Shown here one piece after another: positions 8,993 to 42,706 of a DNA stretch of 64,000 nucleotides. The stretch is from an uncultured Actinomycetes bacterium (lineage in GTDB: Bacteria; Actinomycetota; Thermoleophilia; Gaiellales; Gaiellaceae), in contig CAVZIX010000018.1 in the NCBI GenBank assembly GCA_963775395.1, forward strand, positions 2,935-66,934. The letters run 5' to 3'. The position numbers and the translations under genes are program-made. Every line of letters begins with the position of its first letter. Position 1 is the stretch's first letter. Below the pieces are notes generated by a model that was not told the DNA's origin, did no database searches, and was given only the letters and a program-made list of their open reading frames with translations.

Positions 8993-9035
8993 TGCGCTTA
9001 GCTTCCTCCGGGTGCGGTATACCTGATCTACACAG

Positions 9036-10871
9036 ATGAGTAAGCCCGTCGAGCAGCGCGATCGGGTCGTCATCCGCTTCGCCGGGGACTCGGGGGACGG
9101 AATGCAGCTCACCGGCGGCCGCTTCGCCAGCGAGACCGCACTCCTCGGCAACGACCTCTCCACGCTTCCGGACTTTCCGGCCGAGATTCGCGCGCCCGCG
9201 GGCTCGCTGCCCGGGGTCTCGGGCTTCCAGATCCACTTCTCGGACCACGACATCCTCACACCCGGGGACGCCCCCGATGTACTCGTGGCCATGAACCCGG
9301 CGGCGCTGAAGGCGAACGTGAGGGGGCTCCCCAAGGGCGCCACGATCATCGTCAACACGGACGCGTTCAACGAGCGGAACCTCCAGAAGGCCGGGTACGC
9401 GGCGAACCCGCTCGAAGACGGCTCGCTGGGCGAGTTCCGGGTGCAGCCCGTGCCGCTCACGTCGCTGACGATCGAGGCGCTGAAGGAGTTCGACGTCTCC
9501 AAGCGCGAGGCGGAGCGGTCGAAGAACATGTTCGCGCTCGGGCTCATGTCCTGGCTCTACAGCCGGCCGACCGAGGGCACGATCACCTTCCTCGAGCAGA
9601 AGTTCGCGCGCAGCCCCGAAATCGCGCAGGCGAACGTGAAGGCCTTCAAGGCCGGCTACGCCTTCGGCGAGACCACCGAGGAGTTCGCGGTCCGGTACGA
9701 GGTCCGGCCCGCGCAGCTCGCCCCCGGCACGTACCGCAACGTCACCGGCAACCAGGCGCTCGCCATGGGGCTCATAGCGGCGAGCGTGCAGAGCAAGCTG
9801 CCGCTCTTCCTCGGCGCGTACCCGATCACGCCCGCGTCCGGGATCCTCGAGGAGCTCGCGCGGCACAAGGCCTTCGGCGTGCGGACCTTCCAGGCCGAGG
9901 ACGAGATCGCCGCCGTCGGCGCGGCGCTGGGCGCCTCGTTCGGGGGCGCGCTCGGCGTCTCCACCTCGAGCGGCCCGGGCGTCGTCCTCAAGGCGGAGAC
10001 GATCGGCCTTGCAGTGACGCTCGAGCTCCCGCTGGTCATCCTCGACATCCAACGCGCCGGCCCGTCGACCGGGATGCCGACGAAGCCCGAGCAGGCGGAC
10101 CTGCTCATGGTGCTCTTCGGGCGGAACGCCGAGTCGCCGGTGCCGGTCATCGCCGCCTCGACGCCCGGCGACTGCTTCGCCACGGCGATCGAGGCCGCAC
10201 GGATCGCGCTCAAGTTCCGGACGCCCGTGTACCTCCTCTCGGACGCCTACCTCGCCCACGGTTCCGAGCCGTGGCTCGTGCCGGACGTCGCGTCGCTCCC
10301 CGACATCTCGACGACGTTCGCCGACAAGCCGAACGACGGCGACCGCTTCCTCCCGTACGTTCGCGACGACGACACGCTGGCCCGCCAGTGGGCGCTGCCG
10401 GGCACGCCGGGCCTCGAGCACCGCATCGGCGGGCTCGAGAAGGAGGAGCGCACCGGCAACATCTCCTACGAGCCCGACAACCACGACCTGATGGTGCGGC
10501 TCCGGGCGCGCAAGGTGGCCGGGATCGCGGGCGACATCCCCAGGCTCGAAGTGGACGAGCAGCCGGGTGCGCGGCTCCTCGTGCTCGGCTGGGGCGGCAC
10601 CTACGGGTCGATCGCCGCGGCGGTGCGGCGGGTCCGCGCCCGCGGCGGCGCCGTCGACCACGCGCACCTCACCTACCTGAACCCGTTCCCGCGGAACCTG
10701 GGCGAGGTGCTCCGCTCGTACGACCGCGTGCTCGTCCCCGAGATGAACCTCGGCCAGCTCCTCAAGCTCGTGCGCGCCGAGTTCCTCGTCGACGCGGTCG
10801 GCTACAACCGCGTTCGCGGCGTCCCGTTCACCTCGGCCGAGCTGGCCGACGCCATCCTCCCGCTGACATGA
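9036..10871 (+). CDS. korA: 2-oxoglutarate/2-oxoacid:ferredoxin oxidoreductase subunit alpha
   Basis: The 611-aa ORF begins VVIRFAGDSGDGMQLTGGRFASETALLGNDLSTLPDFPAEIRAPAGSLPGVSGFQIHF... This is the fused gamma/alpha KorA architecture seen in mycobacterial KorA. Confidence 0.92.
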   Translation: MSKPVEQRDRVVIRFAGDSGDGMQLTGGRFASETALLGNDLSTLPDFPAEIRAPAGSLPGVSGFQIHFSDHDILTPGDAPDVLVAMNPAALKANVRGLPKGATIIVNTDAFNERNLQKAGYAANPLEDGSLGEFRVQPVPLTSLTIEALKEFDVSKREAERSKNMFALGLMSWLYSRPTEGTITFLEQKFARSPEIAQANVKAFKAGYAFGETTEEFAVRYEVRPAQLAPGTYRNVTGNQALAMGLIAASVQSKLPLFLGAYPITPASGILEELARHKAFGVRTFQAEDEIAAVGAALGASFGGALGVSTSSGPGVVLKAETIGLAVTLELPLVILDIQRAGPSTGMPTKPEQADLLMVLFGRNAESPVPVIAASTPGDCFATAIEAARIALKFRTPVYLLSDAYLAHGSEPWLVPDVASLPDISTTFADKPNDGDRFLPYVRDDDTLARQWALPGTPGLEHRIGGLEKEERTGNISYEPDNHDLMVRLRARKVAGIAGDIPRLEVDEQPGARLLVLGWGGTYGSIAAAVRRVRARGGAVDHAHLTYLNPFPRNLGEVLRSYDRVLVPEMNLGQLLKLVRAEFLVDAVGYNRVRGVPFTSAELADAILPLT

Positions 10872-23546: not shown

Positions 23547-23876
23547 TCAGGCCTGTGCAGGCTCTGCCAGGCCGAGCGACTGCTCGAGCATCCGCTTCGG
23601 CTGAGCGCCGATCGCGGCTGCCGCAGGCTCGCCGCCCTTGAAGAGGACGATCGTGGGGATCGAGAGGATCCCGTACCGGTGTGCGAGCTCGGGCTCCTCG
23701 TCGATGTTGACCTTGACGACGCGAAGCTCGTCGCCCCGCTCGTCCGCGATCTGATCGAGGATGGGGGAGACGGCACGGCAAGGGCCGCACCATTCCGCCC
23801 AGAAGTCGACGATCACCGGGGTCTCGCTCGCGAGCACCTCGGTGTCGAACTCAGTGGTCGTGATTGGGTTTGCCAT
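23547..23876 (-). CDS. trxA: Thioredoxin
   Basis: ATG at 23876 follows a GGAGAGG RBS. MANPITTTEFDTEVLASETPVIVDFWAEWCGPCRAVSPILD... has the canonical WCGPC site. Confidence 0.93.
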   Translation of the reverse strand: MANPITTTEFDTEVLASETPVIVDFWAEWCGPCRAVSPILDQIADERGDELRVVKVNIDEEPELAHRYGILSIPTIVLFKGGEPAAAAIGAQPKRMLEQSLGLAEPAQA

Positions 23877-23904
23877 ACCTCTCCAAACGTAGACTGACCG
23901 CCAG

Positions 23905-26900
23905 ATGTTCCGCACCCTAGCGCGCGTCCCCGATCACCCTGCGCTCGAGCTGGAGATCCTCGACTGGTGGGAGAAGCGGGGAACCTTCGAGCAGCTCCGC
24001 GAGCTGAATCGCGGCGGGCCCGTCTGGAGCTTCGTCGACGGTCCGGTGACCGCGAACAAGACGCTCGCGATCCACACGGCGTGGGGGAGGACCCTCAAGG
24101 ACGTCTTCCAACGCTACAAGGCGCTCCAGGGGTTCGACCAGCGCTACCAGAACGGTTTCGACTGCCAGGGCCTCTGGATCGAGGTCGGCGTCGAGCGCGA
24201 GCTCGGGCTCAACTCGAAGCGGGAGATCGAGGAGTACGGACTGGCGGAGTTCGCGCGCAAGTGCCACGAGAAGGTCGTCTGGTCGGCCGCCGAGATCACG
24301 CGCGGCTCGAAGCGCCTCGGCCAGTGGATGGACTGGGGCAACGATTACTTCACATTCTCGGACACGAACATCGAGTACATCTGGCGCTTCCTGCGCAAGA
24401 TGCACGACGACGGCCACCTCTACCTCGGCCACCGCTCGACCGAGTGGTGCCCCCGCTGCGGGACATCAATCTCGGCCCACGAGCTCGTCGGGAACTACGA
24501 GGACCGCACGGACCCGTCGCTCTTCGTCCGCTTCCCGCTCGTCGACCGGCCCGGGCAGTCGCTCACCGTCTGGACGACGACGCCTTGGACGCTACCCGCG
24601 AACGTGGCCGCCGCGGTCAAACCGGAGGCCGAGTACGGCCGGCACGAAAACGGAGAGTGGGTGGCGGTCGCGCGCGATCCGCACGAGACGTTCGCGGAGC
24701 GCGTCAAGGGCGCCGAGCTGGTCGGCCTGCGGTACGAGGGCCCGTTCGACCACCTCCCGGCGGTGCAGGGCGTCGAGCACCGGGTCATCCCCTGGGAGGA
24801 TGTCTCGCTGGCGGAGGGAACGGGCATCGTCCACATCGCGCCGGGGAGCGGCGCCGAGGACTTCGAGCTCTCGCGTGTCCACGACCTGCCCGTGCTCGTG
24901 CCGGTCGACGAGGCCGGACGCTTCTACGCGGACTACGGCTGGCTCCACGGTCAGGGAACCTCCGAGGCCGCGGAGCAGATCGTCGTCGACCTCGCCGAGC
25001 GCGGTCGCCTTGTCGGCGCCGGGGAGATCGAGCACCGCTTCCCCTTCTGCTGGCGTTGCCACACGCCGCTCATCTTCCGCGTCGCCGACGACTGGTTCAT
25101 CGGCGTCGAGGAGTTGCGGCCACGGCTTCTCGCCGCGAACGCGACCGTCAAATGGACGCCCGAGTACTTCGGGAAGCGCATGGAGGACTGGCTCCGCAAC
25201 TTGGGGGACTGGAACATCTCGCGGCGCCGCTACTACGGGCTGCCGCTCCCCATCTACCCCTGCGACTGCGGCCACGTGACCGTGATCGGGTCGAGAGCCG
25301 AGCTGGAGGAGAAGGCGACCGCGGGCCTCGACGAGCTGGAAGAGCTGCGCCGCCCCTGGATCGACGACGTGCCAATCCGGTGCGAGGCCTGCGGCAACAA
25401 GGAGGTCCGGCGGATCCCCGAGGTCGGCGACGTCTGGCTCGACGCGGGCATCGTGCCCTTCTCGACCCTCGGCTGGGAGAACCCGGAGTGGATCGAGCAC
25501 GGATACGGGACCGGCGCGGCCAAGGGCCTGACGGGTGCGGACCTCCCCGACCACGCCTATTGGGAGACCTGGTTCCCCGCGCACTGGGTCTCGGAGATGC
25601 GCGAGCAGATCCGCCTCTGGTTCTACTCGCAGCTCTTCATGTCGGTCGCGCTCGTCGACCGCGCGCCGTTCCGTGAGGTGCTCGGCTACGAGAAGATGCT
25701 CGACGAGCACGGCCGGGCGATGCACGGCTCGTGGGGGAACATGATCGACGCCGAGGACGCCTTCGCGCGCATGGGCGCCGACGTCATGCGCTGGCAGTTC
25801 TGCGCGCAGCCTCCGGATCGCAACCTCCTCTTCGGCTACGGGCCGGCGAACGAGATCAAGCGGAACCTCCTCACGCTCTGGAACTCGGTTCGCTTCCTCG
25901 TCGACTACGGGAACATCCAGGGGTTCACGCCGCGCTACGCCGACCTCGACGAGCCCCCGCTCGCCGACGATGCGCGGGCGCTCGACCGCTGGCTGGTCGC
26001 TCGCACGCAGCAATACGTCCATGACGCGACCCAGGCGCTCGACGACCAGCTCACGTACCGCCTCGTGGAGGGCTTCGACCAGTTCGTCGACGATGTCTCC
26101 AACTGGTACATCCGCCGCTCGCGCCGCCGCTTCTGGGACGGGGACGAGACGGCGCTTCGCGTCCTCTGGCATGCGCTCGTTCAGGGCATCCGCGCGATCT
26201 CGCCGGTGATGCCCTTCCTGGCTGAGCATCTGTGGCGCAGCCTGGTCGCCGAAGCGTGCGAGGGCGCGCCGGAGAGCGTCTTCCTCGCCGGCTGGCCGCA
26301 GGCGGGCGAGCCGGACACGGCCCTTCTGGAGGAGATCGCCGAGCTACGGTCGATCGTCGGCCTCGGCAACCGTGCGCGGGACTCGGCGGGGATGAAGCTG
26401 CGCCAGCCCCTCAGAGCACTTGTCGTCGAGGGCGCCGAACGGGCGACGAGCCACGGCGACGAGATTGCGGAAGAGCTCCGCGTGAAGTCGGTCTCGTTCG
26501 AGCAGATCGCCGGCGCCAAGGTCCGCGCGAAGCCGAACCTGAAGCTCCTCGGGCCCAGGCTCGGCGCGGAACTCCCGAAGATCAGCGCGGCGCTCGCCGA
26601 AGGGCGCTTCGAGCACCTCCCGGACGGAGGCGCCAGGGTCGAGGGGCACGACCTTGCCCCGGACGAGGTCTTCGTCCAGCGTGAGGCGCCCGACGGCTGG
26701 ACCCTCGCCGAGGCCACGGGACTGGCTGTCGCGCTCGACATCCGCCTCGACCCCGAGCTCGAGCTCGAAGGCCGGGTCTACGACCTCGTGCACACGGTGA
26801 ACTCGATGCGCAAGGAGCAGGGGCTCGAGATCACCGACCGCATCGTCCTGACGCTTCCCGACGGCGAGGACCTGCAACGGTTCGCGGACTGGATCAAGTC

Positions 26901-33239: not shown

Positions 33240-34208
33240 ATGGGATCGCGGCCGGTTCTGATGGCGATGGCCGGTGCGACGGGCATCGCCTTCTCAGCGA
33301 TCCTCGTCCGCCTCGCCGACGTGCCTCCGTCGACCGCGGCCTTCTACCGCTGCCTGTACGCGCTGCCGCCGCTCGCGCTTCTCGCCTGGTGGGAGCGGCG
33401 CCGCTTCGGGCCGCTGGGGAGGCGCGCCCTGTGGCTCGCGCTCGTCGCCGGCGTCTTCTTCACGGGCGACCTCGTCTTCTGGCACCACGCGATCGCCGCC
33501 GTGGGCGCGGGCCTCGCGACGGTCCTGGGGAACATCCAGGTCGTGATCGTGCCCCTCGTCGCGTGGGTCCTTCTGCGGGAGCGGCCGGGCGCGCGGACGC
33601 TGGCCTCGGTGCCGGTCGTGCTCGCCGGCGTCGTCCTCATCTCGGGCGTTGTAGGCGCGGACGCCTACGGCTCGAATCCGGGGCTGGGCGTTCTCTTCGG
33701 CGTTCTCACGGCGATCACGTACGCCGGCTTCCTGCTCGTGCTGCGCGCCGGAAGCTCCGATCTCCGGCGCCCGGCCGGCCCGCTCTACTGGGCGACGCTC
33801 TCGTCCGCGCTCGTGACGCTCCCTGTCGGCGCGGCGCTCGGCGAGCTCGAGCTCGAGCCGACCTGGCCCGAGCACGGCTGGCTTCTCGTGCTCGCGCTGA
33901 CGTCGCAGGTCGTAGGCTGGCTGCTCATCGCCGCGGCCCTGCCCCGGCTTCCGGCCGCGCTCACGTCGATCACCCTGACCCTCCAGCCCGCGCTCTCGGT
34001 CATCTTCGCCGTGATCCTCCTGGACGAGTCGCCTTCCTCCGTCCAGTTCGCGGGCGTGGCCGTGATCATCGGCGGGGTCGTGCTCGCGACCGCGGGCCGC
34101 CGTTCGCGGCCGTACACTGAGCCGGAGCTGCGGGACGTAGCGCAGCCTGGTAGCGCGCCTGCTTTGGGAGCAGGAGGCCGCCGGTTCGAATCCGGCCGTC
34201 CCGACTGA
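33240..34208 (+). CDS. EamA/DMT-superfamily transporter; the ORF has no stop until after tRNA-Pro
   Basis: MGSRPVLMAMAGATGIAFSAILVRLAD... has 10 TM segments. The last 26 codons (ELRDVAQPGSAPALGAGGRRFESGRPD) are simply the translation of the tRNA-Pro gene. Confidence 0.8.
   Translation: MGSRPVLMAMAGATGIAFSAILVRLADVPPSTAAFYRCLYALPPLALLAWWERRRFGPLGRRALWLALVAGVFFTGDLVFWHHAIAAVGAGLATVLGNIQVVIVPLVAWVLLRERPGARTLASVPVVLAGVVLISGVVGADAYGSNPGLGVLFGVLTAITYAGFLLVLRAGSSDLRRPAGPLYWATLSSALVTLPVGAALGELELEPTWPEHGWLLVLALTSQVVGWLLIAAALPRLPAALTSITLTLQPALSVIFAVILLDESPSSVQFAGVAVIIGGVVLATAGRRSRPYTEPELRDVAQPGSAPALGAGGRRFESGRPD
34131..34204 (+). tRNA. tRNA-Pro (anticodon TGG)
   Basis: Hand-folded cloverleaf: acceptor CGGGACG/CGTCCCG, D-stem GCGC/GCGC, anticodon stem CCTGC/GCAGG with loop TTTGGGA, variable loop AGGCC, T-arm GCCGG-TTCGAAT-CCGGC, discriminator A. 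CCA is not encoded. Confidence 0.95.
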
Positions 34209-35811: not shown

Positions 35812-35943
35812 TTAGGTCGCCGGCTTCGGCGTGACCAGCCGCAGCAGGCGCTCGAGCGTGGCCGCGTCGAGCTCGCCGCGGTTGCGGGCGAGCGCGGCCA
35901 GGAGCGCGAGCTGCGCGCGGGTTGTCTCCTGCTCGCTCTTCAT
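35812..35943 (-). CDS. Small hypothetical protein (43 aa)
   Basis: MKSEQETTRAQLALLAALARNRGELDAATLERLLRLVTPKPAT has very high GC3 and no clear RBS. It is divergent from iclR. Confidence 0.3.
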   Translation of the reverse strand: MKSEQETTRAQLALLAALARNRGELDAATLERLLRLVTPKPAT

Positions 35944-36026
35944 GCCGCGTCGTTCGTGACGGCGGTCACAGATCCTTTCCGCAGGCTCGGCCGTGCCGGT
36001 TGCGCGATCGGCACATGTGTTGCACA

Positions 36027-36767
36027 ATGCGCAACGTGCAGTCCGCCGACAAGGCGATGGCGATCCTCTCGGCCTTCGACGAGGGCCGTGAGGATCTCGG
36101 CGTGTCCGAGCTTGCTGCCGAGCTGGGGACGCACAAGAGCACCGTCTCGCGGCTGCTCGCCACGCTGGAGCGCCGGGGCCTCGTGCGCCGCGTCGGCGAT
36201 CGGTTTGCGCCCGGACCGGAGCTGGCTCGGCTCGGCGGGCTCGCCGTGCGGGGGATCACACTTGTTGAGGCGGGGCGGCCAACGCTCGAGCGGCTCGCGG
36301 AGCGAACCGGGGAGACCGTCAACCTCGCCGTTCGCGAAGGGGCGCGCGCGCTGAACGTGCTGCAGGTGGACGCCGACCACTTCGTCGGGGTCACCGACTG
36401 GACCGGCCGCGCAGCACCCCTGCATGCGACGGCCAACGGCAAGGCGCTGCTCGCGTTCGGAAGCGAGCAGCTCCCGGGCCGGCTCTCGAAGCTGACGACG
36501 CGCACGATCGTCGACCGCGGCGACCTCCGCGCGGAGCTGGGTCGCGCGCGTACGGCGGGCTTCGCCGTGGCCGTGGAGGAGCTCGAGGTTGGCCTCAACG
36601 CCGTGGCCGCGCCGGTCTTCGACGCGTCCGGCTCCTGTGTGGCCGCGGTGTCGGTCTCCGGGCCCGCCTACAGGCTTCCGGAGCCGAAGCTTCCTGCCGC
36701 GGGTGACCTGTGCGCGGCCGCTGCAGCGGAGATCTCTCGCCGGCTCGGCTACCGGAGGGCTGCCTGA
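36027..36767 (+). CDS. IclR-family transcriptional regulator (first cistron of the grd operon)
   Basis: MRNVQSADKAMAILSAFDEGREDLGVSELAAELGTHKSTVSRLLATLERRGLV is an HTH_IclR domain, followed by an IclR effector domain (...NLAVREG...PLHATANGKALLAF...). ATG at 36015 is an alternative start. Confidence 0.9.
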   Translation: MRNVQSADKAMAILSAFDEGREDLGVSELAAELGTHKSTVSRLLATLERRGLVRRVGDRFAPGPELARLGGLAVRGITLVEAGRPTLERLAERTGETVNLAVREGARALNVLQVDADHFVGVTDWTGRAAPLHATANGKALLAFGSEQLPGRLSKLTTRTIVDRGDLRAELGRARTAGFAVAVEELEVGLNAVAAPVFDASGSCVAAVSVSGPAYRLPEPKLPAAGDLCAAAAAEISRRLGYRRAA

Positions 36768-37948
36768 TGGCCTGGGAGCTCGCGACCTTTCCGGCCGAGC
36801 TGATGGGCGACCTCCCCGGGCTCGACGGTGTCAACGTTGACGTCGTGCGGGCCGGCGATCCGGTGCGCATCACCCACGTGCTCGACGCCGTCGAGCCGCG
36901 CGTGCGCCCCGACGGTCGGGCCGCGTTCCCCACGGACGGCAAGGCCGGCGAGGGCCGGACGAACCGGCTCGACGGGGTGGTCGTCGTCTCCTGCCTCGAT
37001 TTCCCGGCCGAGGAACGCCCGCTCCATGAGCAGGAGGCCGTCATCGACCTCGCGGGGCCCGGGGCCGAGCTCGCGCCGTTCGCGCAGGCGACGAACGTCG
37101 TGCTCACGTTCCGTCCGCGCGACGGTCTGGGCAACGAGGAGCTCGAGGCGTGGGCGCGCACGACGACGCTCGCAGTCGCCGAGGACCTCGCCAGGCCGAC
37201 GCTCGGCGCCGAGCCCGCCGTCGTGGAGCGTTTCGAGCGCGGCCCTGCGGACGCGAGTCTTCCGTCGGTTGCCGCGCTCGTCCAGCTCTCCGACCTCGGA
37301 CCTCTCTACTACCAATACCTCTACGGCGTCCCCGTTGGACAGGCCGGCCTGCCGCGCGCGGTCGACCCGGCCGAGCTCCTCGACGGCGTCCTGACCTGTG
37401 GCGAGTACCACTGGGCAGGGCTCCGAAACCCGACGATCCTCTTCCAGCGCAACGAGCTCGTTCGCACGCTCTACCGCGAGCACGGCCGACGGCTGCGGTT
37501 CGCCGGCGTCGTGCTGATGCGTGGGTACGAGCAGACGGCCGAGGACAAGCAGCGCGCGGCGACGGCGGCCGCTGCAGCGGCCGTCGAGCTCGGAGCGGAC
37601 GGGGCGCTCGTGACCACCGATGCCGGCGGAAACTCGCACACGGACGTGATGCTCACCGTACGGGCGTGCGAGCAGGCGGGCGTGCGGACGACCACGATCG
37701 TCGCCGAGATGGCCGACCCGGGCTCGACGAGCCCTGGGCTCACGGACTGGGTGCCCGAGGCCGACTCGATCGTGTCGGCCGGGAACGCCGAGGAGCTCGT
37801 TCCCGCGTGGACGCCGGAGAGGGTCATCGGCGGTGACACGCTTCTCGACGGGAGCGACGCGCGCGACGCGGGCCCGATCCCGACCCGCAACTACCTCGGG
37901 GCGACCAACCAGATGGGCCAGCACGCGCTGAGGGCGGTCGCCTGGTGA
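36767..37948 (+). CDS. grdE: Glycine/sarcosine/betaine reductase component B proprotein (alpha/beta subunits, GrdE-like)
   Basis: The ATG shares its A with the iclR TGA (TGATG). ...VRAGDPVRITHVLDAVEPRVRPDG... and ...LDGVLTCGEYHW...FAGVVLMRGYEQTAEDKQRAA...LGADGALVTTDAGGNSHTDVML...GVRTT are collinear with clostridial GrdE as I recall it, including the processing Cys (Cys211, 37397-37399). Confidence 0.85.
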   Translation: MAWELATFPAELMGDLPGLDGVNVDVVRAGDPVRITHVLDAVEPRVRPDGRAAFPTDGKAGEGRTNRLDGVVVVSCLDFPAEERPLHEQEAVIDLAGPGAELAPFAQATNVVLTFRPRDGLGNEELEAWARTTTLAVAEDLARPTLGAEPAVVERFERGPADASLPSVAALVQLSDLGPLYYQYLYGVPVGQAGLPRAVDPAELLDGVLTCGEYHWAGLRNPTILFQRNELVRTLYREHGRRLRFAGVVLMRGYEQTAEDKQRAATAAAAAAVELGADGALVTTDAGGNSHTDVMLTVRACEQAGVRTTTIVAEMADPGSTSPGLTDWVPEADSIVSAGNAEELVPAWTPERVIGGDTLLDGSDARDAGPIPTRNYLGATNQMGQHALRAVAW

Positions 37949-39222
37949 GAGCGGTCCACTATCTCAACCAGTTCTTCGCCGGCCTGGGTGGAGAAGAGGC
38001 GGCGGAGACTCCGCCGACGCGCCTGGATGGGGCGGTGGGGCCCGGCCGAGGGCTGGCCGCTGCACTCGAGGGGATCGAGATCGTCGCGACGCTCGCCTGT
38101 GGCGACGACTACTTCGGCGAGCACGAGGACGAGGCCCTCGAGACGCTGCTCGGCCTCCTCGAGGCGGAGCGGCCGGACGTGCTCATCGCCGGCCCGGCCT
38201 TCGGCTCGGGCCGCTACGGCTATGCCTGTGCGCGTTTTTCGCGCATGGCGGCCGAACGGCTCGACATCCCCGCGCTCGCCGCGATGCACGAGGAAAATCC
38301 GGGTGTTGGGGCGACCGACGGCAAGGCGCTCGTCGTCCCCACTGCGGTCAACGTCGCCGGCATGCGGGACGCGCTTCCGCGCATGGCCTCGCTCGCGGAG
38401 GCACTCGCTTCGGGCCGCGAGCTCGGCCCGCCCGACGAGGAGGGGTATCTGCCGCGCGGTTTCCGGCGGAACCGGCTCGACGAGAAGCCCGGCGCCGAGC
38501 GGGCGGTCGAGCTCCTGCTCGCGAAGCTCGCCGGCGAGACCCGCAGCGAGGTGGCATCGGGCTTCGACCGCGTCGAGCCGCCGGCGCCCGTCGAGGACCT
38601 CTCGCAAGCGCTCGTCGCGCTCGTCACCGAGGCGGGGTGCGTGCCGCAGGGAAATCCGGACCGGCTCCCGACGATCCGCGCACAGGGCTGGCTTCGCTAC
38701 TCGCTGGCGGATGAGATGAGCCTCTTGTCCGGCCGGTACGAGTCCGTCCACGGCGGCTTCGACGTCACACTCGCGAACGAGGACCCCAACCGTCTCGTCC
38801 CGCTCGACACGGCCCGGGCCCTCGAGGCCGAGGGCCGGCTTGGCCGGGTCCACGACGCCTTCTACACGACCACCGGCAACGGGACTCCGGTCGCGGCGTC
38901 CACGCAGTTCGGTCGCGAGATCGCTGCGGAGCTCACGGAGGCAGGGGTGCACGCCGTGCTCCTGTCCGGGACCTGAGGGACCGGGACGCGCTGCGGGTCA
39001 GTGCTGGCGAAGGAGATCGAGCGGGCGGGGATTCCGACGGTATTCGTGACCTCGCTTCCGACGATCGCGACGATGATCGGCGCCAACCGCATCGTTCGCG
39101 GGCCCGCGATCACGCATCCGTTCGGGCTCGACGAGGCGGAGCGGCGCAGGATCGTCGAGCGGGCGCTCGAGATGCTCGAGACCGAGGTCGAGCCGGCGAC
39201 CGTGTGGGAGCTGGAGGGGTGA
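37945..39222 (+). CDS. grdB: Glycine/sarcosine/betaine reductase selenoprotein B (GrdB family), Sec encoded by in-frame TGA at 38974
   Basis: The GTG overlaps the grdE stop (GTGA). It begins MRAVHYLNQFFAGLGGEE... and reaches ...AVLLSGT-TGA-GTGTRCGSVLAKEIERAGIPTVFVTSLPTIATMIGANRIVRGPAITHPFG...WELEG*. The frame is open from 38977 to 39222, and ORF-track entries 37945..38976 and 39001..39222 are in the same frame. Confidence 0.88.
38974..38976 (+). other. UGA recoded as selenocysteine (GrdB residue 344)
   Basis: This is the position of the conserved Sec in the T-U-G-T-x-T-R-C-G context of selenoprotein B. The downstream frame is open and homologous. Confidence 0.8.
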
Positions 39223-39229
39223 GCCGCGG

Positions 39230-40564
39230 ATGAGCGCCGGGGCCGCGATCCACGCCTGCTCCATGGTCCTCGCGCACGCGCCGGACCTCGTCAGGCACGG
39301 CTCGAAGCCGACGAGGGAGCTGGCGGCCGACTCCGACGGGCTGCTGGCCTCGCTCTCGGGTGCCTTGCGCAGCTACGACGACGCGCTCGCCTATCCACCC
39401 AACCAGGCGCTGATCGGGAATCTCCGCCCAGAGGCGCTCTGGGAGCTCGAGCGGCCATGGTGGCGGCAGCCGGTCGACCCGCGCAGCGAGGGGCCGTTCG
39501 GCGTGATCGTCGACCAGGCCGAGCTCTACCGGCGCATGCAGGAGGCGGATCACTTCGGGCTCTTCAAGCTCGACGGGACCGCTGCGAGAAACGGCGGTCT
39601 GACGATCAGCGAGGACGGCCGCGATATCGGCTCGATGGCTGGAGCGCACGACGTCGACGAGAGCCTCTCGGCGGCGGTGCTGCTCGAGAACCTCGCCTGC
39701 AAGGCCACGGGCGCGCTCGCGCTCGAGCACGTGCTCCGCATCTCGACGCTCCCTCCGGAAGACGTCCAGTACGTGATCGGGAGCGGGGAGGAGGCCGTCG
39801 GCGACCGCTACCAGCGGGGCGGCGGCAACCTCGCCAAGGCGATCGCCGAGCAGGCAAGGTGCGTGAATGCCTCCGGCAGCGACGTGAAGGCGTTCTGCTG
39901 CGGCCCCGTGCACGCACTCGTCGTTGCCGGAGCTCTGGTCGCGGCCGGCGTCTATCCGCATGTGCTCGTCGTGGCGGGTGGGTCACTGGCCAAGCTGGGG
40001 ATGAAGTTCGCGGGCGCCCTTCGTCATGGCGTGCCGGTGCTCGAGGACGTTCTCGCGGGCTTCGCCGTCGTTGTCGGCCCATCCGGCGACGGAGCGCCTG
40101 AGATCCGCCTCGACGCCGTCGGGCGGCACCGCGTCGGCTCGGGCTCGGCCCAGCAGGCCGTGCTCGAAGATCTGGTCGTCGAGCCGCTCGAGCGGCTCGG
40201 TCGGCGCATCCTCGACGTCGACCGCTACGCGACCGAGCTCCACGATCCGGAGATCACGGAGCCGGCAGGGGCGGGCAACGTCCCGAGCCGCAACTACAAG
40301 CTCATCGGCGCCCTCGCCGTGCGCCGTGGCGAGCTGGCCCGCGAGGAGCTGGACGGGTTCGAGCGCGCTCACGGCCTGCCGGGCTTCTCTCCGACGCAGG
40401 GGCACGTCGCCTCGGCGGTCCCGTGGCTCCCGCACGGCCTCGAGGCGCTGCGGGCGGGCGAGATCGGCTCGACCATGCTGCTCGCGAAGGGCTCGCTCTT
40501 CCTCGGGCGCATGACCGAGCTGGCCGACGGCCTATCGATCCTCGTGGAACCGGGAAAGGAGTAG
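39230..40564 (+). CDS. grdC: Glycine reductase complex component C, beta subunit (thiolase-fold, GrdC-like)
   Basis: ATG lies 12 nt after GGAGG. ...HACSMVLAHAPDLVRHGSKP...YPPNQALIGNLRPE...LENLACKATGALALEHVL...GGGNLAKAIAEQA...SDVKAFCCGPVHALVVAGALVAAG...VVAGGSLAKLGMKF...GNVPSRNYKLIGALAV...GFSPTQGHV...LLAKGSLFLGRMT. This matches GrdC as I remember it and fits the context. Confidence 0.78.
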   Translation: MSAGAAIHACSMVLAHAPDLVRHGSKPTRELAADSDGLLASLSGALRSYDDALAYPPNQALIGNLRPEALWELERPWWRQPVDPRSEGPFGVIVDQAELYRRMQEADHFGLFKLDGTAARNGGLTISEDGRDIGSMAGAHDVDESLSAAVLLENLACKATGALALEHVLRISTLPPEDVQYVIGSGEEAVGDRYQRGGGNLAKAIAEQARCVNASGSDVKAFCCGPVHALVVAGALVAAGVYPHVLVVAGGSLAKLGMKFAGALRHGVPVLEDVLAGFAVVVGPSGDGAPEIRLDAVGRHRVGSGSAQQAVLEDLVVEPLERLGRRILDVDRYATELHDPEITEPAGAGNVPSRNYKLIGALAVRRGELAREELDGFERAHGLPGFSPTQGHVASAVPWLPHGLEALRAGEIGSTMLLAKGSLFLGRMTELADGLSILVEPGKE

Positions 40565-40566
40565 AC

Positions 40567-40896
40567 ATGCCGGTCGACGCGACTGTCGACACCTACCACG
40601 ACCTGACGAGCGACGGCAGCGTCCTCGTGGACTTCTGGGGCCCGCGCTGCCAGCCTTGCCTCGCGATGATGCCCACGATCGCGCAGCTCGAGGAGGAGGC
40701 CGGCGGGGCAGTTCGGGTCGTCAAGGTCAACTCGTCGGAGAACCGCGACATCTGCCGCGAGCTGCGCGTCTTCGGCCTGCCGACGTACGTTCTCATGCAG
40801 AACGGAGAAGAGCTGGAGCGGCTCTCGGGCGAGGTGTCCAAGGGCGACATCGAGCGCGCGTTCGCGACGCTCGCGAAGGGAGGTGAGGCTGCATGA
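40567..40896 (+). CDS. trxA: Thioredoxin-fold protein with C-Q-P-C active site (grd-associated)
   Basis: ATG at 40567 follows [50 protein letters not shown]...VVKVNSSEN...[14 protein letters not shown] has thioredoxin topology, but with CQPC instead of CGPC. Confidence 0.88.
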
Positions 40897-41357
40897 AGCT
40901 CGACGGCAAGAAGGTGATCGCGCTCGGCGAGCGGGACGGCGTGCCCGGCCCCGCGATTGCCGCGTGCGTCTCCTCGGCGGGAGCCGAGGTCGTCTTCGTC
41001 GAGACGGAGTGTTTCGTCTGAACGGCTGCCGGGGCCATGGACCCGGAGAACCAGGACCGCATCATGGCCCTGGTCGACGAGCACGGCGCGGGCGACCTCG
41101 TGGTCGTCCTCGGCGCAGCCGACCTCGAGTCGCTCGAGGTCGCAGCCGAGACGGTCACGGTGGGAGACCCGGCGTACGTCGGTCCATTGGCAGGAGTCCA
41201 GTTGGGGCTCCCCGTCGTTCACATCCTCGAAGAGGGCGTCAAGGAGCAGGTCGATGCCGGCGTCTACGACGAGCAGGTCGGGCTGCTCGAGATGACCCTG
41301 GACGTCGACCAGGTGCGCGAGGCGGCGAGGAAGTTCCCGGGCCGCGACGGCGGCTAG
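40893..41357 (+). CDS. grdA: Glycine/sarcosine/betaine reductase complex selenoprotein A, Sec encoded by in-frame TGA at 41019
   Basis: The ATG overlaps the trx stop (ATGA). [59 protein letters not shown]...[30 protein letters not shown]...[11 protein letters not shown]. This is the GrdA signature ECFV-U-TAAGAMD. ORF 41037..41357 is the in-frame tail. Confidence 0.92.
41019..41021 (+). other. UGA recoded as selenocysteine (GrdA residue 43)
   Basis: It sits exactly at the U of the invariant CFVUTAAGAMD motif and is in frame with the ATG at 40893 (126 nt). Confidence 0.88.
41029..41046 (+). other. Candidate SECIS-like hairpin downstream of the grdA UGA
   Basis: CCGGG (41029-41033) pairs with CCCGG (41042-41046) around the loop GCCAUGGA, starting 8 nt after the UGA. 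This was folded by eye only. Confidence 0.3.
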
Positions 41358-41532: not shown

Positions 41533-42291
41533 TCAGCGCGGCTCGGGGTCCGGCGCGGACTCCTCTTCGGCCATGAACTTGACGAACACGACCGCGAAGG
41601 CGGCGAAGAACACGATCGCCTCACTCACCGCCATCGCGATGCCGGCGATCTGCTGGTCCTCGAGCGGCGTCAGGTCGCGCAGGCGCGGTGCAGCGACGTA
41701 GAAGTCGTAGAGCGGCTCGGTGAGGAGAGCGAGCAGGAGGCCGAGCGGGCTCGCGAAGACGAAGGCGATGAAGATGTAGGCGGCCTTCGCGCCCGACGAG
41801 AGGGCGCGGGGCGCGCTGTGCACCACGGGCCACCAGAGAAAGAAGCCGGTCACGAGATATGTGAGGTGCTCCAGGTGCAGGAGCGCGTGGTGCTCGAGGG
41901 CGGTGTCGTAGGCCGCGGGGATGTGCCACACGACATAGCCGCCGAGCCACAGCGGCAGCGCGATCGCCGGCGCGCTCAGGAGGCGAATCACGCGCACGCG
42001 CGCGAGAGACTCGGCCAGGGACGGCGGGAGGCTGGCGACCAGAAGAAGCGGGATCCACTCGGCGAGCGCGACGTTCTGGACGAGGTGAGCCGTGAGGAGG
42101 TAGTGGAGCGCAAGCGTCCCGAGCGGCGTGACGGACACTGCGAGGAACAGGACGACCGCCGCGACGAAGCATGCCGCCCGGACCCTTGACGGTCGATGCC
42201 TGCGGGCCGCGACCAGATAGGCGGTCGTCAGGACGGCGACGGCGGCGAGCTCGACCCACGCCGTTTGCCAGCTCGACGGCGAGGGCGCCAC
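41533..42291 (-). CDS. Cytochrome c oxidase assembly factor CtaG-like (Caa3_CtaG family) membrane protein
   Basis: 252 aa with a GTG start and about 7 TM segments. ...HLVQNVALAEWIPLLLV...GGYVVWHIPAAYDTALEHHALLHLEHLTYLVTGFFLWWPV... is typical of the family. Confidence 0.75.
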   Translation of the reverse strand: MAPSPSSWQTAWVELAAVAVLTTAYLVAARRHRPSRVRAACFVAAVVLFLAVSVTPLGTLALHYLLTAHLVQNVALAEWIPLLLVASLPPSLAESLARVRVIRLLSAPAIALPLWLGGYVVWHIPAAYDTALEHHALLHLEHLTYLVTGFFLWWPVVHSAPRALSSGAKAAYIFIAFVFASPLGLLLALLTEPLYDFYVAAPRLRDLTPLEDQQIAGIAMAVSEAIVFFAAFAVVFVKFMAEEESAPDPEPR

Positions 42292-42331
42292 GACGCCCCG
42301 AAGGATACGGGCGCGGGCGCCCTGCGCGTGA

Positions 42332-42706
42332 CTAGATCAGCCAGGGATCGACGTAGGCCGGATCCTTGCGGGCGAGCCAGTTGCGTACGTAGATGCCGCC
42401 TGCGACCAGCGGGATCCCCGGGAAGGCCGTGAGGAGCACGACCGTCGCCCAGAGTGCCGATGGGAGTCCGCCTGCGATCGCCGCGACCACGACGGGGACA
42501 CCCGTGAAATAGAGCGCCTTCCAGTCGTCGACGACGTAGCCGAGGCCGAAATGCACGACGAGCGGTACCAGCAGGAGCACAAGCACCGCGACCGCAGGCA
42601 GCGACGTCTCCGTCGCGGCGAAGAAGACGATCCAGGCCGTCATGGCCGTGCAGTAGACGAGGATGGCCTCGCGCGGTGTGAGCTCGTTGATCCGTTCGAG
42701 AGTCAC
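42332..42706 (-). CDS. Small hypothetical membrane protein (3-4 TM)
   Basis: GTG at 42706 follows GGAGGGGA (7-nt spacer). VTLERINELTPREAILVYCTAMTAWIVFFAA... The longer ORF start at 42793 lacks an RBS. Confidence 0.6.
   Translation of the reverse strand: MTLERINELTPREAILVYCTAMTAWIVFFAATETSLPAVAVLVLLLVPLVVHFGLGYVVDDWKALYFTGVPVVVAAIAGGLPSALWATVVLLTAFPGIPLVAGGIYVRNWLARKDPAYVDPWLI

What the first reader, a model, noticed from the sequence alone, without database searches (positions are those of the whole stretch)
37945..39222. In-frame UGA (38974-38976) fuses two called ORFs into one selenoprotein B (GrdB)
Seen: ORF 37945..38976 (MRAVHYLNQFFAGLGGEE...HAVLLSGT) ends at TGA. Reading on in the same frame gives GTGTRCGSVLAKEIERAGIPTVFVTSLPTIATMIGANRIVRGPAITHPFGLDEAERRRIVERALEMLETEVEPATVWELEG*, with no other stop before 39222. 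ORF-track entry 39001..39222 is in this same frame (offset 27 nt). Established: GrdB/GrdF/GrdH-family selenoprotein B has its Sec in a ...T-U-G-T-x-T-R-C-G... context followed by KEIE(R/K)AGIP and an ANRIV...HP.G tail. The MR.VHY.NQFFAG.GGEE start is also characteristic of the family. Inference: the UGA is read as Sec (residue 344 of a 425-aa protein). Standard gene callers would truncate the gene and lose the redox-active C-terminus.
Basis: partly seen in the sequence, partly recalled or inferred. Interest (0 to 1): 0.8.

Follow-up and report, generated by a model that had tools for sequence, protein, structure and literature searches.

The report
Selenocysteine UGA in selenoprotein B gene
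The in-frame stop codon almost certainly encodes selenocysteine in a glycine-reductase-type selenoprotein B gene of a soil actinobacterium (Gaiellales-like); this is a textbook kind of recoding that gene callers routinely miss, so it is a correct but largely ordinary finding.

Summary
A GTG-started frame at 37945 meets TGA at 38974-38976 and stays open to 39222. The 425-aa read-through product matches the selenoprotein B family model end to end.

- **Conservation:** all 80 related genomic loci carry TGA at this codon, followed by a conserved 80-89 aa tail. Rare full-length homologues have Cys at that position.
- **SECIS:** a 17-nt hairpin begins 11 nt after the UGA (38988-39004). It is supported by compensatory base changes across phyla.
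- **Second case:** grdA (40893-41357) lies in the same operon and has its own in-frame TGA (41019-41021) in the CFV-U-TAAG motif.
- **Code:** TGA is otherwise the commonest ordinary stop in the window, so the recoding is site-specific.
- **Not testable:** no selA/B/C/D genes lie in the 64-kb window or in relatives' flanks, and the rest of the genome was not available.

The protein scores below the GrdB, GrdF and GrdH equivalog cut-offs. Its GrdE-like partner lacks the pyruvoyl-precursor Cys, and no grdD is nearby. It therefore belongs to a distinct actinobacterial clade with unknown substrate.

Verdict: interpretation supported. It is a new member of a known kind, and interest is modest.

The parts
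37945..39222 (+). Selenoprotein B family gene (grdB-like), a single 425-aa product with Sec at residue 344
   Evidence: Sequence and translation. TIGR01918 438.1 bits, residues 2-422 to profile 1-431/431. PF07355 406 bits. GC3 is 0.85 before and 0.91 after the TGA.
38974..38976 (+). In-frame UGA read as selenocysteine (context LLSGT-U-GTGTRCG)
   Evidence: TGA at the aligned codon in 80/80 related loci. It aligns to Cys in the full-length homologues P0153 and P0231.
38988..39004 (+). SECIS-like hairpin GCGCUG-CGGGU-CAGUGC: 6 bp plus a 5-nt G-rich loop here, 7 bp plus a GGG loop in most relatives. It starts 11 nt after the UGA.
   Evidence: 81-sequence alignment A1: 95.1% of cells paired; compensatory changes at 3 of 7 pairs (G-C/U-A, U-A/C-G, U-A/A-U); 0 of 500 shuffles reach the observed values; slid controls give 25-67% paired. 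RNAalifold recovers the core. dG is -7.7 kcal/mol in isolation.
36767..37948 (+). GrdE/GrdG/GrdI-type partner subunit of protein B (PF09338). It lacks the Asn-Cys pyruvoyl-precursor site. The likely ATG at 36767 overlaps the iclR stop codon; the mechanical ORF runs from GTG 36710.
   Evidence: PF09338 248 bits. Best NCBIfam match is GrdG at 163.6 bits against a cut-off of 780. Alignment: Firmicute 'SGN|CVSACDKN' against window 'CGEYHWAGLRN'. Start context and gene calls in syntenic contigs.
39230..40564 (+). grdC (reductase complex component C, beta subunit)
   Evidence: NF040746 541.7 bits against a cut-off of 450. PF19364 and ACP_syn_III.
40567..40896 (+). Thioredoxin-like gene with a CQPC active site. 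Its stop overlaps the grdA start as ATGA.
   Evidence: Sequence. Thioredoxin models score 71-77 bits, below their equivalog cut-offs. Conserved at this position in actinobacterial loci.
40893..41357 (+). grdA, selenoprotein A, with a second in-frame UGA at 41019-41021 (ETECFV-U-TAAGAMD)
   Evidence: PF04723 hit begins at profile position 42, immediately after the stop. Translation. Read-through product scores NF040748 213.8 bits against a cut-off of 130. TGA at 70/70 homologous sites.
35922..36767 (+). IclR-family regulator directly upstream, conserved in the Gaiellaceae-type loci (start uncertain)
   Evidence: PF09339 and PF01614. Synteny.

Best explanation
The TGA at 38974-38976 is a selenocysteine codon. 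The two called ORFs (37945-38976 and 39001-39222) are one gene encoding a 425-aa selenoprotein B family subunit of a Grd-type (glycine/sarcosine/betaine-reductase-like) thioredoxin-dependent reductase.

Proposed mechanism:
1. During translation, a short hairpin 11 nt downstream of the UGA (38988-39004, G-rich apical loop) recruits SelB carrying Sec-tRNA(Sec). Sec is inserted instead of termination. This step is inferred.
2. Sec344, with the nearby Cys351 (U-G-T-G-T-R-C), forms the redox-active centre. It attacks the substrate bound by the GrdE-like partner.
3. The resulting carboxymethyl group passes to Sec of GrdA, which is encoded in the same operon and also has an in-frame UGA. It is then handled by GrdC, and thioredoxin re-reduces the system. 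Steps 2 and 3 are inferred from the established Grd mechanism.

The gene order (iclR)-grdE'-grdB(U)-grdC-trx-grdA(U) is conserved in about 50 Gaiellales/Thermoleophilia genomes.

The physiological substrate is not assigned. The protein B pair is not the glycine, sarcosine or betaine equivalog, and the partner subunit cannot form the pyruvoyl group by the canonical Asn-Cys cleavage.
For: Shown directly:
- The frame is continuous and the coding signature persists across the TGA.
- The family HMM matches end to end.
- 80/80 related loci have TGA followed by G-T-[GC]-T-R-C-G and a conserved tail.
- Variation in the tail follows codon position (positions 1/2/3 = 0.125/0.063/0.263) and is lower than upstream of the UGA. 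No conserved restart codon follows the UGA.
- Cys aligns with the UGA in rare full-length homologues.
- The hairpin has compensatory changes. In particular, the synonymous Arg codon choice CGC/CGU matches G/A at the first base of the codon three positions downstream in 79/79 distinct sequences, with at least three independent switches.
- grdA in the same operon has TGA at its canonical CxxU position at 70/70 sites and passes the equivalog cut-off when read through.
- TGA terminates 21 of 40 ordinary ORFs in the window, so the code is not reassigned.
- In four Firmicute loci with the same hairpin, selD and/or selB lie beside grd.

From the literature:
- GrdA (CxxU) and GrdB (UxxC...) are classic selenoproteins encoded with in-frame TGA (PMC13188914).
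- They have few Cys homologues (PMC1794560).
Against: - No selA, selB, selD or tRNA-Sec gene is present in the 64-kb window or within +-10 kb of grdB in 53 actinobacterial loci. Sec-decoding capacity in this genome is therefore inferred, not shown.
- Single-sequence MFE folding of the region downstream of the UGA is no more stable than shuffled controls.
- In this window the hairpin has a C/U mismatch at the closing pair and folds at only -7.7 kcal/mol.
- No Rfam family matches.
- No covariation-supported hairpin was found for the grdA UGA.
- The canonical UxxCxxC motif is UxxGxxC here.
Confidence: 0.92

Rival explanations
1. The TGA is a genuine stop. The locus is either a decayed or split gene, or it makes a 343-aa protein plus a separately initiated 73-aa peptide from GTG 39001.
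For: Gene callers produce exactly this split in public data. Many orphan 70-100 aa 'proteins' matching the tail exist in databases. No sel genes are seen locally.
Against: - TGA is conserved at 80/80 loci, always in frame with the tail.
- The eight residues between the TGA and the GTG (GTGTRCGS), including the redox Cys, are among the most conserved in the protein.
- The first in-frame start after the UGA is not at a conserved position: codon 9, 10, 22 and others.
- The tail is under stronger purifying selection than the 30 codons before the UGA.
- Full-length Cys homologues are single ORFs.
- The same pattern is repeated in grdA.
Confidence: 0.03
2. The UGA is read through, but not as selenocysteine. 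This could be near-cognate or suppressor-tRNA insertion of Trp, Cys or Arg, or a lineage-wide change in the meaning of UGA.
For: The Sec machinery was not observed. One database homologue (P0124) is translated with W at the site, probably through a code-4 gene call.
Against: - TGA is the commonest normal terminator in the window, including for grdB itself, the grdE-like gene and trx.
- If Sec decoding had been lost, a single-base change to TGC or TGT would be expected. None of the 53 actinobacterial sequences has made it, for either grdB or grdA.
- The downstream hairpin is kept by compensatory changes. It is the same element as in Firmicutes that encode selB/selD beside grd.
Confidence: 0.04

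Closest known systems
Glycine reductase protein B (GrdB with GrdE) and selenoprotein A (GrdA) of Clostridia/Peptoclostridium; grdAB operons with two in-frame TGA codons
   Same: - Same protein families: PF07355/TIGR01918, PF09338, PF04723 and component C beta.
- Sec at the same aligned positions in both GrdB and GrdA.
- Same short hairpin after the grdB UGA.
- A thioredoxin gene in the operon.
   Different: - Below the GrdB equivalog cut-off (405.9 against 602.2) and fails the published GrdB motif.
- UxxGxxC instead of UxxCxxC.
- The partner lacks the Asn-Cys pyruvoyl-precursor site.
- No grdD or trxB nearby.
- Different gene order: grdE-grdB-grdC-trx-grdA against trx-grdE-grdA-grdB-grdC-grdD.
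- The host is a high-GC actinobacterium.
Non-pyruvoyl members of the family: betaine reductase GrdH/GrdI and fluoroacetate reductase FarB/FarE
   Same: The substrate-binding partner lacks the two Cys needed for autocatalytic pyruvoyl formation, as reported for GrdI and FarE. The CxxC after Sec is incomplete, and FarB lacks it (PMC10838667).
   Different: Scores are far below the curated cut-offs: GrdH 372.8 against 775, and FarE 70.7 against 675 for the partner. One Cys of the motif is retained. No substrate evidence.
Bacterial SECIS elements (E. coli fdhF minimal SECIS; bSECIS consensus)
   Same: A small hairpin immediately downstream of the UGA with guanosine in a small apical loop (features as described in PMC1088965). 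The 17-nt stem-loop begins 11 nt after the UGA. From my own recollection, not checked here, this matches the spacing and size of the E. coli minimal SECIS.
   Different: No bulged U. The sequence is unrelated to fdhF. There is no Rfam model. SelB binding has not been tested.
D-proline reductase PrdB
   Same: Homologous C-terminal half with Sec in a U-x-x-C-type context (TIGR04483 hit over residues 247-385).
   Different: Only 80.5 bits against a cut-off of 300. The window protein has the full GrdB-type N-terminal domain and GrdA/GrdC partners.

Membership tests
Selenoprotein B family (TIGR01918 / PF07355: GrdB, GrdF, GrdH and relatives) | Full-length match to the family model above the curated cut-off | tested here: met
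   TIGR01918 438.1 bits against a cut-off of 65.45, residues 2-422 to profile 1-431/431. PF07355 406.1 bits against 22.
Selenoprotein B family (TIGR01918 / PF07355: GrdB, GrdF, GrdH and relatives) | In-frame UGA at the family's Sec position, aligned with Cys in Cys-containing homologues | tested here: met
   80/80 loci have TGA at the aligned codon. X344 aligns to Cys in P0153 and P0231.
Selenoprotein B family (TIGR01918 / PF07355: GrdB, GrdF, GrdH and relatives) | SECIS-type hairpin just downstream of the UGA | tested here: met
   Hairpin at +15..+31. 95.1% of cells paired, 3 pairs with compensatory change, 0/500 shuffles reach the observed values.
Selenoprotein B family (TIGR01918 / PF07355: GrdB, GrdF, GrdH and relatives) | Encoded with its partners: a GrdE-type subunit, GrdA, GrdC and thioredoxin | tested here: met
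   Synteny in about 50 loci.
Selenoprotein B family (TIGR01918 / PF07355: GrdB, GrdF, GrdH and relatives) | Host genome encodes the Sec insertion machinery (selA, selB, selD, tRNA-Sec) | not testable with these tools
   None in the 64-kb window or in the actinobacterial flanks.
Selenoprotein B family (TIGR01918 / PF07355: GrdB, GrdF, GrdH and relatives) | Selenium actually incorporated at residue 344 | not testable with these tools
   Needs 75Se labelling or mass spectrometry.
Glycine reductase GrdB proper (TIGR01917 equivalog) | Score at or above the equivalog cut-off of 602.2 bits | tested here: not met
   405.9 bits.
Glycine reductase GrdB proper (TIGR01917 equivalog) | Published GrdB motif (PMC9751293): ...GPxF[NF]AGRYG...AHGGxD[QTAP]...RV[IL]PxD...TxGNxTxV | tested here: not met
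   The window has GPAFGSGRYG, VHGGFDV and RLVPLD; only TTGNGTPV fits. 0/53 actinobacterial sequences match, against 14/28 of the other loci.
Glycine reductase GrdB proper (TIGR01917 equivalog) | UxxCxxC redox motif (PMC13188914) | tested here: not met
   The window has U-G-T-G-T-R-C. The first Cys is Gly in all actinobacterial loci.
Glycine reductase GrdB proper (TIGR01917 equivalog) | Partner GrdE proprotein with the Asn-Cys site that yields the pyruvoyl group | tested here: not met
   Firmicute 'SGNCVSACDKN' is replaced by 'CGEYHWAGLRN'.
Glycine reductase GrdB proper (TIGR01917 equivalog) | Component C complete (GrdC plus GrdD) in the cluster | tested here: not met
   GrdC is present. A verified GrdD probe finds nothing in the window or in any actinobacterial locus, even at E <= 5. 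A copy elsewhere in the genome cannot be excluded.
Sarcosine reductase GrdF (NF040794) | Score at or above 800 bits, and the GrdF motif IHGGYDR...TTGTGT | tested here: not met
   434.3 bits. Both motif elements are absent.
Betaine reductase GrdH (NF040795) | Score at or above 775 bits | tested here: not met
   372.8 bits. The unprocessed partner is consistent with a GrdI-like type but is not diagnostic.
Selenoprotein A, GrdA (NF040748 / PF04723), for the neighbouring gene 40893-41357 | Equivalog score at or above 130 bits, and a CxxU motif with in-frame UGA | tested here: met
   213.8 bits. C-F-V-U with TGA at 41019-41021. 70/70 homologous sites are TGA.

The most novel reading that the evidence does not exclude
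Gaiellales and Thermoleophilia are among the most abundant soil actinobacteria and are generally regarded as aerobes. They may carry a distinct, conserved two-selenoprotein Grd-like reductase that is not a glycine, sarcosine or betaine reductase.

Its features:
- The protein B pair lacks the pyruvoyl-forming site and the first Cys of UxxCxxC.
- No GrdD is encoded in the cluster.
- The operon is linked to IclR/GntR regulators and to solute importers.

On this reading it reduces a different alpha-substituted acetate or amine. It may also release its product without the canonical GrdD acetyl-thioester step. It would further imply a previously unreported Sec-decoding trait across this lineage.
Probability: 0.4. 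Interest if true: 0.55.

Novelty: new member of a known kind. Interest (0 to 1): 0.3.

Why it matters
**Annotation.** Reading the UGA as a stop deletes the catalytic Sec/Cys centre and 81 C-terminal residues of protein B. It also splits GrdA in two. Public gene calls for this lineage carry exactly these errors (344 + 73 aa and 42 + 107 aa), and databases hold many orphan 'tail' mini-proteins.

**Biology.** The result implies that a widespread soil actinobacterial lineage uses selenocysteine. It also implies a thioredoxin-dependent reductive pathway usually associated with strict anaerobes, in a variant form whose substrate is unknown. I found no paper in the searchable literature that links Gaiellales with selenocysteine or glycine reductase.

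Tried and rejected
- **Single-sequence MFE folding downstream of the UGA.** Folds were no better than dinucleotide shuffles (z = +0.95 to +1.73). This test is uninformative in 70% GC coding sequence, so I replaced it with comparative analysis.
- **Rfam.** Gathering and E-value scans gave no SECIS or tRNA-Sec match.
- **PDB sequence search.** No solved homologue.
- **grdA SECIS.** RNAalifold and an all-pairs covariation scan of 70 sequences found no supported helix. In the window alone, CCGGG/CCCGG (41029-41033 with 41042-41046) can pair at -10.6 kcal/mol. Left as inconclusive.
- **Sec machinery.** ARAGORN was run on the window and on 80 loci. These found selD/selB in four Firmicute loci only.
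- **Source contig.** The look-up of encoding contigs with the window's own 343-aa product found nothing on record, so the source contig could not be identified or extended.
- **Literature.** Searches for Gaiellales or Thermoleophilia with selenocysteine, selenoprotein or glycine reductase found nothing relevant.
- **Structure prediction.** Not attempted.
- **Pseudogene, split-gene and code-reassignment readings.** Considered and rejected; see the rival explanations.
Full report
**Observation.**
- A GTG at 37945 overlaps the stop of the upstream gene as GTGA. It opens a frame reading MRAVHYLNQFFAGLGGEE...HAVLLSGT.
- That frame meets TGA at 38974-38976 and continues GTGTRCGSVLAKEIERAGIP...WELEG to TGA at 39220-39222.
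- This gives 425 residues, with the UGA as residue 344.
- The ORF list entry 39001..39222 is in the same frame, 27 nt downstream.
- The window is about 70% GC. A GC3-based frame analysis shows the coding signature continues across the stop: GC3 is 0.85 before it and 0.91 after it.

**Family assignment.** With the UGA replaced by Cys, the product matches the NCBIfam subfamily model for glycine/betaine/sarcosine/D-proline-family selenoprotein B from end to end. TIGR01918 gives 438.1 bits against a cut-off of 65.45, with residues 2-422 on profile positions 1-431 of 431. Pfam GRDB gives 406 bits. The protein stays well below the equivalog cut-offs:

| Equivalog | Score (bits) | Cut-off (bits) |
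|---|---|---|
| Glycine GrdB | 405.9 | 602.2 |
| Sarcosine GrdF | 434.3 | 800 |
| Betaine GrdH | 372.8 | 775 |

No solved structure is detectably related by sequence.

**Comparative test of the UGA.**
- The 120 best database homologues are all 335-344 aa and cover 81% of the query, so they are cut at the same place. The two with organism names are Gaiellaceae.
- A scan of species-representative genomes gave 80 loci. Of these, 52 are Gaiellaceae, Gaiellales, Thermoleophilia or Actinomycetota MAGs at 56-91% identity. The rest are Firmicutes, Chloroflexi, Armatimonadota and others at 44-57%.
- All 80 have TGA at the aligned codon, followed by G-T-[GC]-T-R-C-G and a conserved 80-89 aa tail. Two apparent exceptions (L028, L055) only have an upstream frameshift.
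- Among the 53 actinobacterial sequences (these 52 loci plus the window), variation after the UGA follows codon position: the minor-allele fraction is 0.125, 0.063 and 0.263 at positions 1, 2 and 3. This is lower than in the 30 codons before the UGA (0.17, 0.122, 0.377).
- The first in-frame start codon after the UGA is not at a conserved position, so the 73-aa 'ORF' is incidental.
- TGA terminates 21 of 40 GC3-supported ORFs in the window, including this gene itself. The code is therefore standard and the recoding is site-specific.

**Sec/Cys pair.** I searched 1.84 billion representative proteins with the tail alone. Most hits were orphan mini-ORFs of 70-100 aa starting at tail residue 9-11. 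A few hits were full-length single-ORF homologues of 415-450 aa with Cys at the UGA position, reading ...SC-C-GT[CG]xRCG.... BLASTP alignments of the read-through product to P0153 (41% identity over 444 columns) and to P0231 (34%) run uninterrupted across the site and align X344 with Cys. This is the standard criterion for recognising a selenoprotein gene.

**SECIS.** Thermodynamic folding of the single sequence is uninformative, because shuffles fold as well or better. No Rfam model matches. The codon-aligned DNA of 81 sequences, however, shows a hairpin at positions +15 to +31 counted from the U of UGA (window 38988-39004).
- Most relatives have 7 bp and a GGG loop. In this window the closing C/U pair is mismatched, giving 6 bp and the loop CGGGU.
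- 95.1% of cells are paired.
- Three of seven pairs show compensatory changes: 15-31 (G-C 53, U-A 15, A-U 1, C-G 1), 18-28 (U-A 49, C-G 30, no mismatch) and 19-27 (U-A 77, A-U 1, U-G 1).
- None of 500 shuffles reaches the observed values, and slid controls pair at only 25-67%.
- Pair 18-28 links the synonymous third base of the Arg codon (CGC or CGU) to the first base of a codon three positions downstream (GUG/GCG or ACG). Protein-level constraint does not predict this link. It switches at least three times independently: in the Gaiellaceae clade, in the L025-L031 clade, and in a Firmicute subgroup.
- In isolation the hairpin folds at -7.7 kcal/mol here, and at -10.4 and -8.3 kcal/mol in two relatives.
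- A small hairpin directly after the UGA with G in the apical loop is what the bacterial SECIS consensus describes (PMC1088965). From my own recollection, not checked here, the 11-nt spacer and 17-nt size match the E. coli minimal SECIS.

**Surroundings.** The gene is part of a compact operon.

| Gene | Coordinates | Evidence |
|---|---|---|
| iclR | 35922-36767 | |
| grdE-like | 36767-37948 | PF09338 |
| grdB(U) | 37945-39222 | |
| grdC | 39230-40564 | NF040746, 541.7 against 450 |
| thioredoxin-like gene, CQPC site | 40567-40896 | |
| grdA | 40893-41357 | |

- grdA carries a second in-frame TGA at 41019-41021 in ETECFV-U-TAAGAMD. Read through, it passes the selenoprotein A equivalog cut-off at 213.8 bits against 130. 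All 70 homologous sites in the loci are TGA.
- Two independent, conserved in-frame UGAs at the canonical Sec positions of two known selenoproteins in one operon is what the literature describes for grdAB operons (PMC13188914, citing Kreimer and Andreesen 1995).
- I could not show a covariation-supported hairpin after the grdA UGA.

**What could not be shown.** No tRNA-Sec, selA, selB or selD is present in the window or within +-10 kb of grdB in the actinobacterial loci. My probes did find selD and selB beside grd in four Firmicute loci that carry the same hairpin. The source contig is not in the look-up collection. Sec-decoding capacity in this genome is therefore inferred from three things:
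- both UGAs are retained in 53 of 53 actinobacterial sequences, although a one-base escape to a Cys codon is available;
- the tails are under purifying selection;
- the hairpin is maintained by compensatory changes.

**Departures from canonical glycine reductase.**
1. None of the 53 actinobacterial sequences matches the published GrdB or GrdF motifs of PMC9751293, whereas 14 of 28 sequences from the other loci match the GrdB motif.
2. The redox motif is UxxGxxC rather than UxxCxxC (PMC13188914).
3. The GrdE-like partner lacks the Asn-Cys site of Firmicute GrdE, with 'SGN|CVSACDKN' replaced by 'CGEYHWAGLRN'. It therefore cannot generate the pyruvoyl group in the canonical way. This has been reported for betaine GrdI and fluoroacetate FarE (PMC10838667), but it scores far below those models.
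4. A verified GrdD probe finds grdD in 10 Firmicute loci. It finds none in any actinobacterial, Chloroflexi or Armatimonadota locus, nor in the 64-kb window, even at E <= 5.
5. The gene order differs from the Firmicute order.
6. In more distant actinobacterial clades the operon is followed by GntR/FCD regulators with ABC importers, or by an amidohydrolase with an amino-acid permease.
7. A caa3 oxidase assembly gene lies next to the operon.

These points make 'selenoprotein B family, substrate unassigned' the accurate label. They also leave open a more novel reading, given separately as the novel case.

**Verdict.** The phenomenon is textbook, and the curated family model already flags these proteins as selenoproteins; NCBI names Gaiellaceae homologues 'selenoprotein B'. 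The finding is therefore a new member of a known kind, with real annotation value and modest scientific interest. The lineage (no literature found) and the variant operon are the parts worth following up.

Noticed in passing
window 40893-41357 (TGA at 41019-41021): A second selenoprotein gene. grdA has an in-frame UGA in ETECFV-U-TAAGAMD, and gene callers split it into 42 + 107 aa in related contigs. It lies in the same operon as the reported gene.
   Followed up: yes
window 36767-37948: The GrdE-like partner lacks the Asn-Cys (and the second Cys) needed for autocatalytic pyruvoyl formation: 'CGEYHWAGLRN' in place of Firmicute 'SGNCVSACDKN'. All actinobacterial relatives share this, which suggests a non-pyruvoyl (GrdI/FarE-like) or new substrate type.
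   Followed up: partly
window 1-64000; loci L001-L050, L055, L066, L068: No grdD (component C alpha) or trxB lies near any actinobacterial grd operon, although grdC is always present. Chloroflexi, Armatimonadota and 'Tagabacteria' loci (L063, L067, L072, L073) also lack a detectable grdD in their flanks.
   Followed up: partly
window 40567-40896: An operon-encoded thioredoxin-like protein with an unusual CQPC active site instead of CGPC. It scores below the thioredoxin equivalog cut-offs. A standard thioredoxin lies far away at 23547-23933 (-).
   Followed up: partly
window 41533-42336 (-) and 9027-10871 (+): A caa3-type cytochrome oxidase assembly factor (CtaG) lies directly beside the grd operon. 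A 2-oxoacid:ferredoxin oxidoreductase-type gene (POR domains) is also in the window. This mixes aerobic and anaerobic-type markers in the host of an enzyme usually linked to strict anaerobes.
   Followed up: no
window 33240-34208 (+) and 34131-34205 (+): The EamA-transporter ORF runs through the whole tRNA-Pro(TGG) gene on the same strand. Either the real CDS ends differently, or the CDS and the tRNA gene overlap.
   Followed up: no
L028:10001-11300, L055:10001-11300, L037 tail: Frameshifts inside grdB (L028, L055) or in its tail (L037) in long-read MAGs. These are probably assembly indels rather than pseudogenes, because the Sec site and tail are intact in the shifted frame.
   Followed up: partly
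P0124, P0141, P0132: Database homologues with a residue other than Sec or Cys at the Sec position. P0124 has W, likely a code-4 style translation of UGA. P0141 has T together with RSG instead of RCG. P0132 has S. The last two may be redox-inactive relatives.
   Followed up: no
L072:11039-11098: A Dehalococcoidia homologue has Ser (AGC) instead of the conserved Cys in U-G-T-G-T-R-C. The base change is compensated on the other strand of the hairpin (U-A to A-U), so RNA structure is kept while the redox Cys is lost.
   Followed up: partly
L074:9490-14685, L078:9490-13192: Halanaerobiales loci carry tandem duplicated grdA-grdE-grdB sets, each with in-frame TGAs, and selD lies upstream of them.
   Followed up: no
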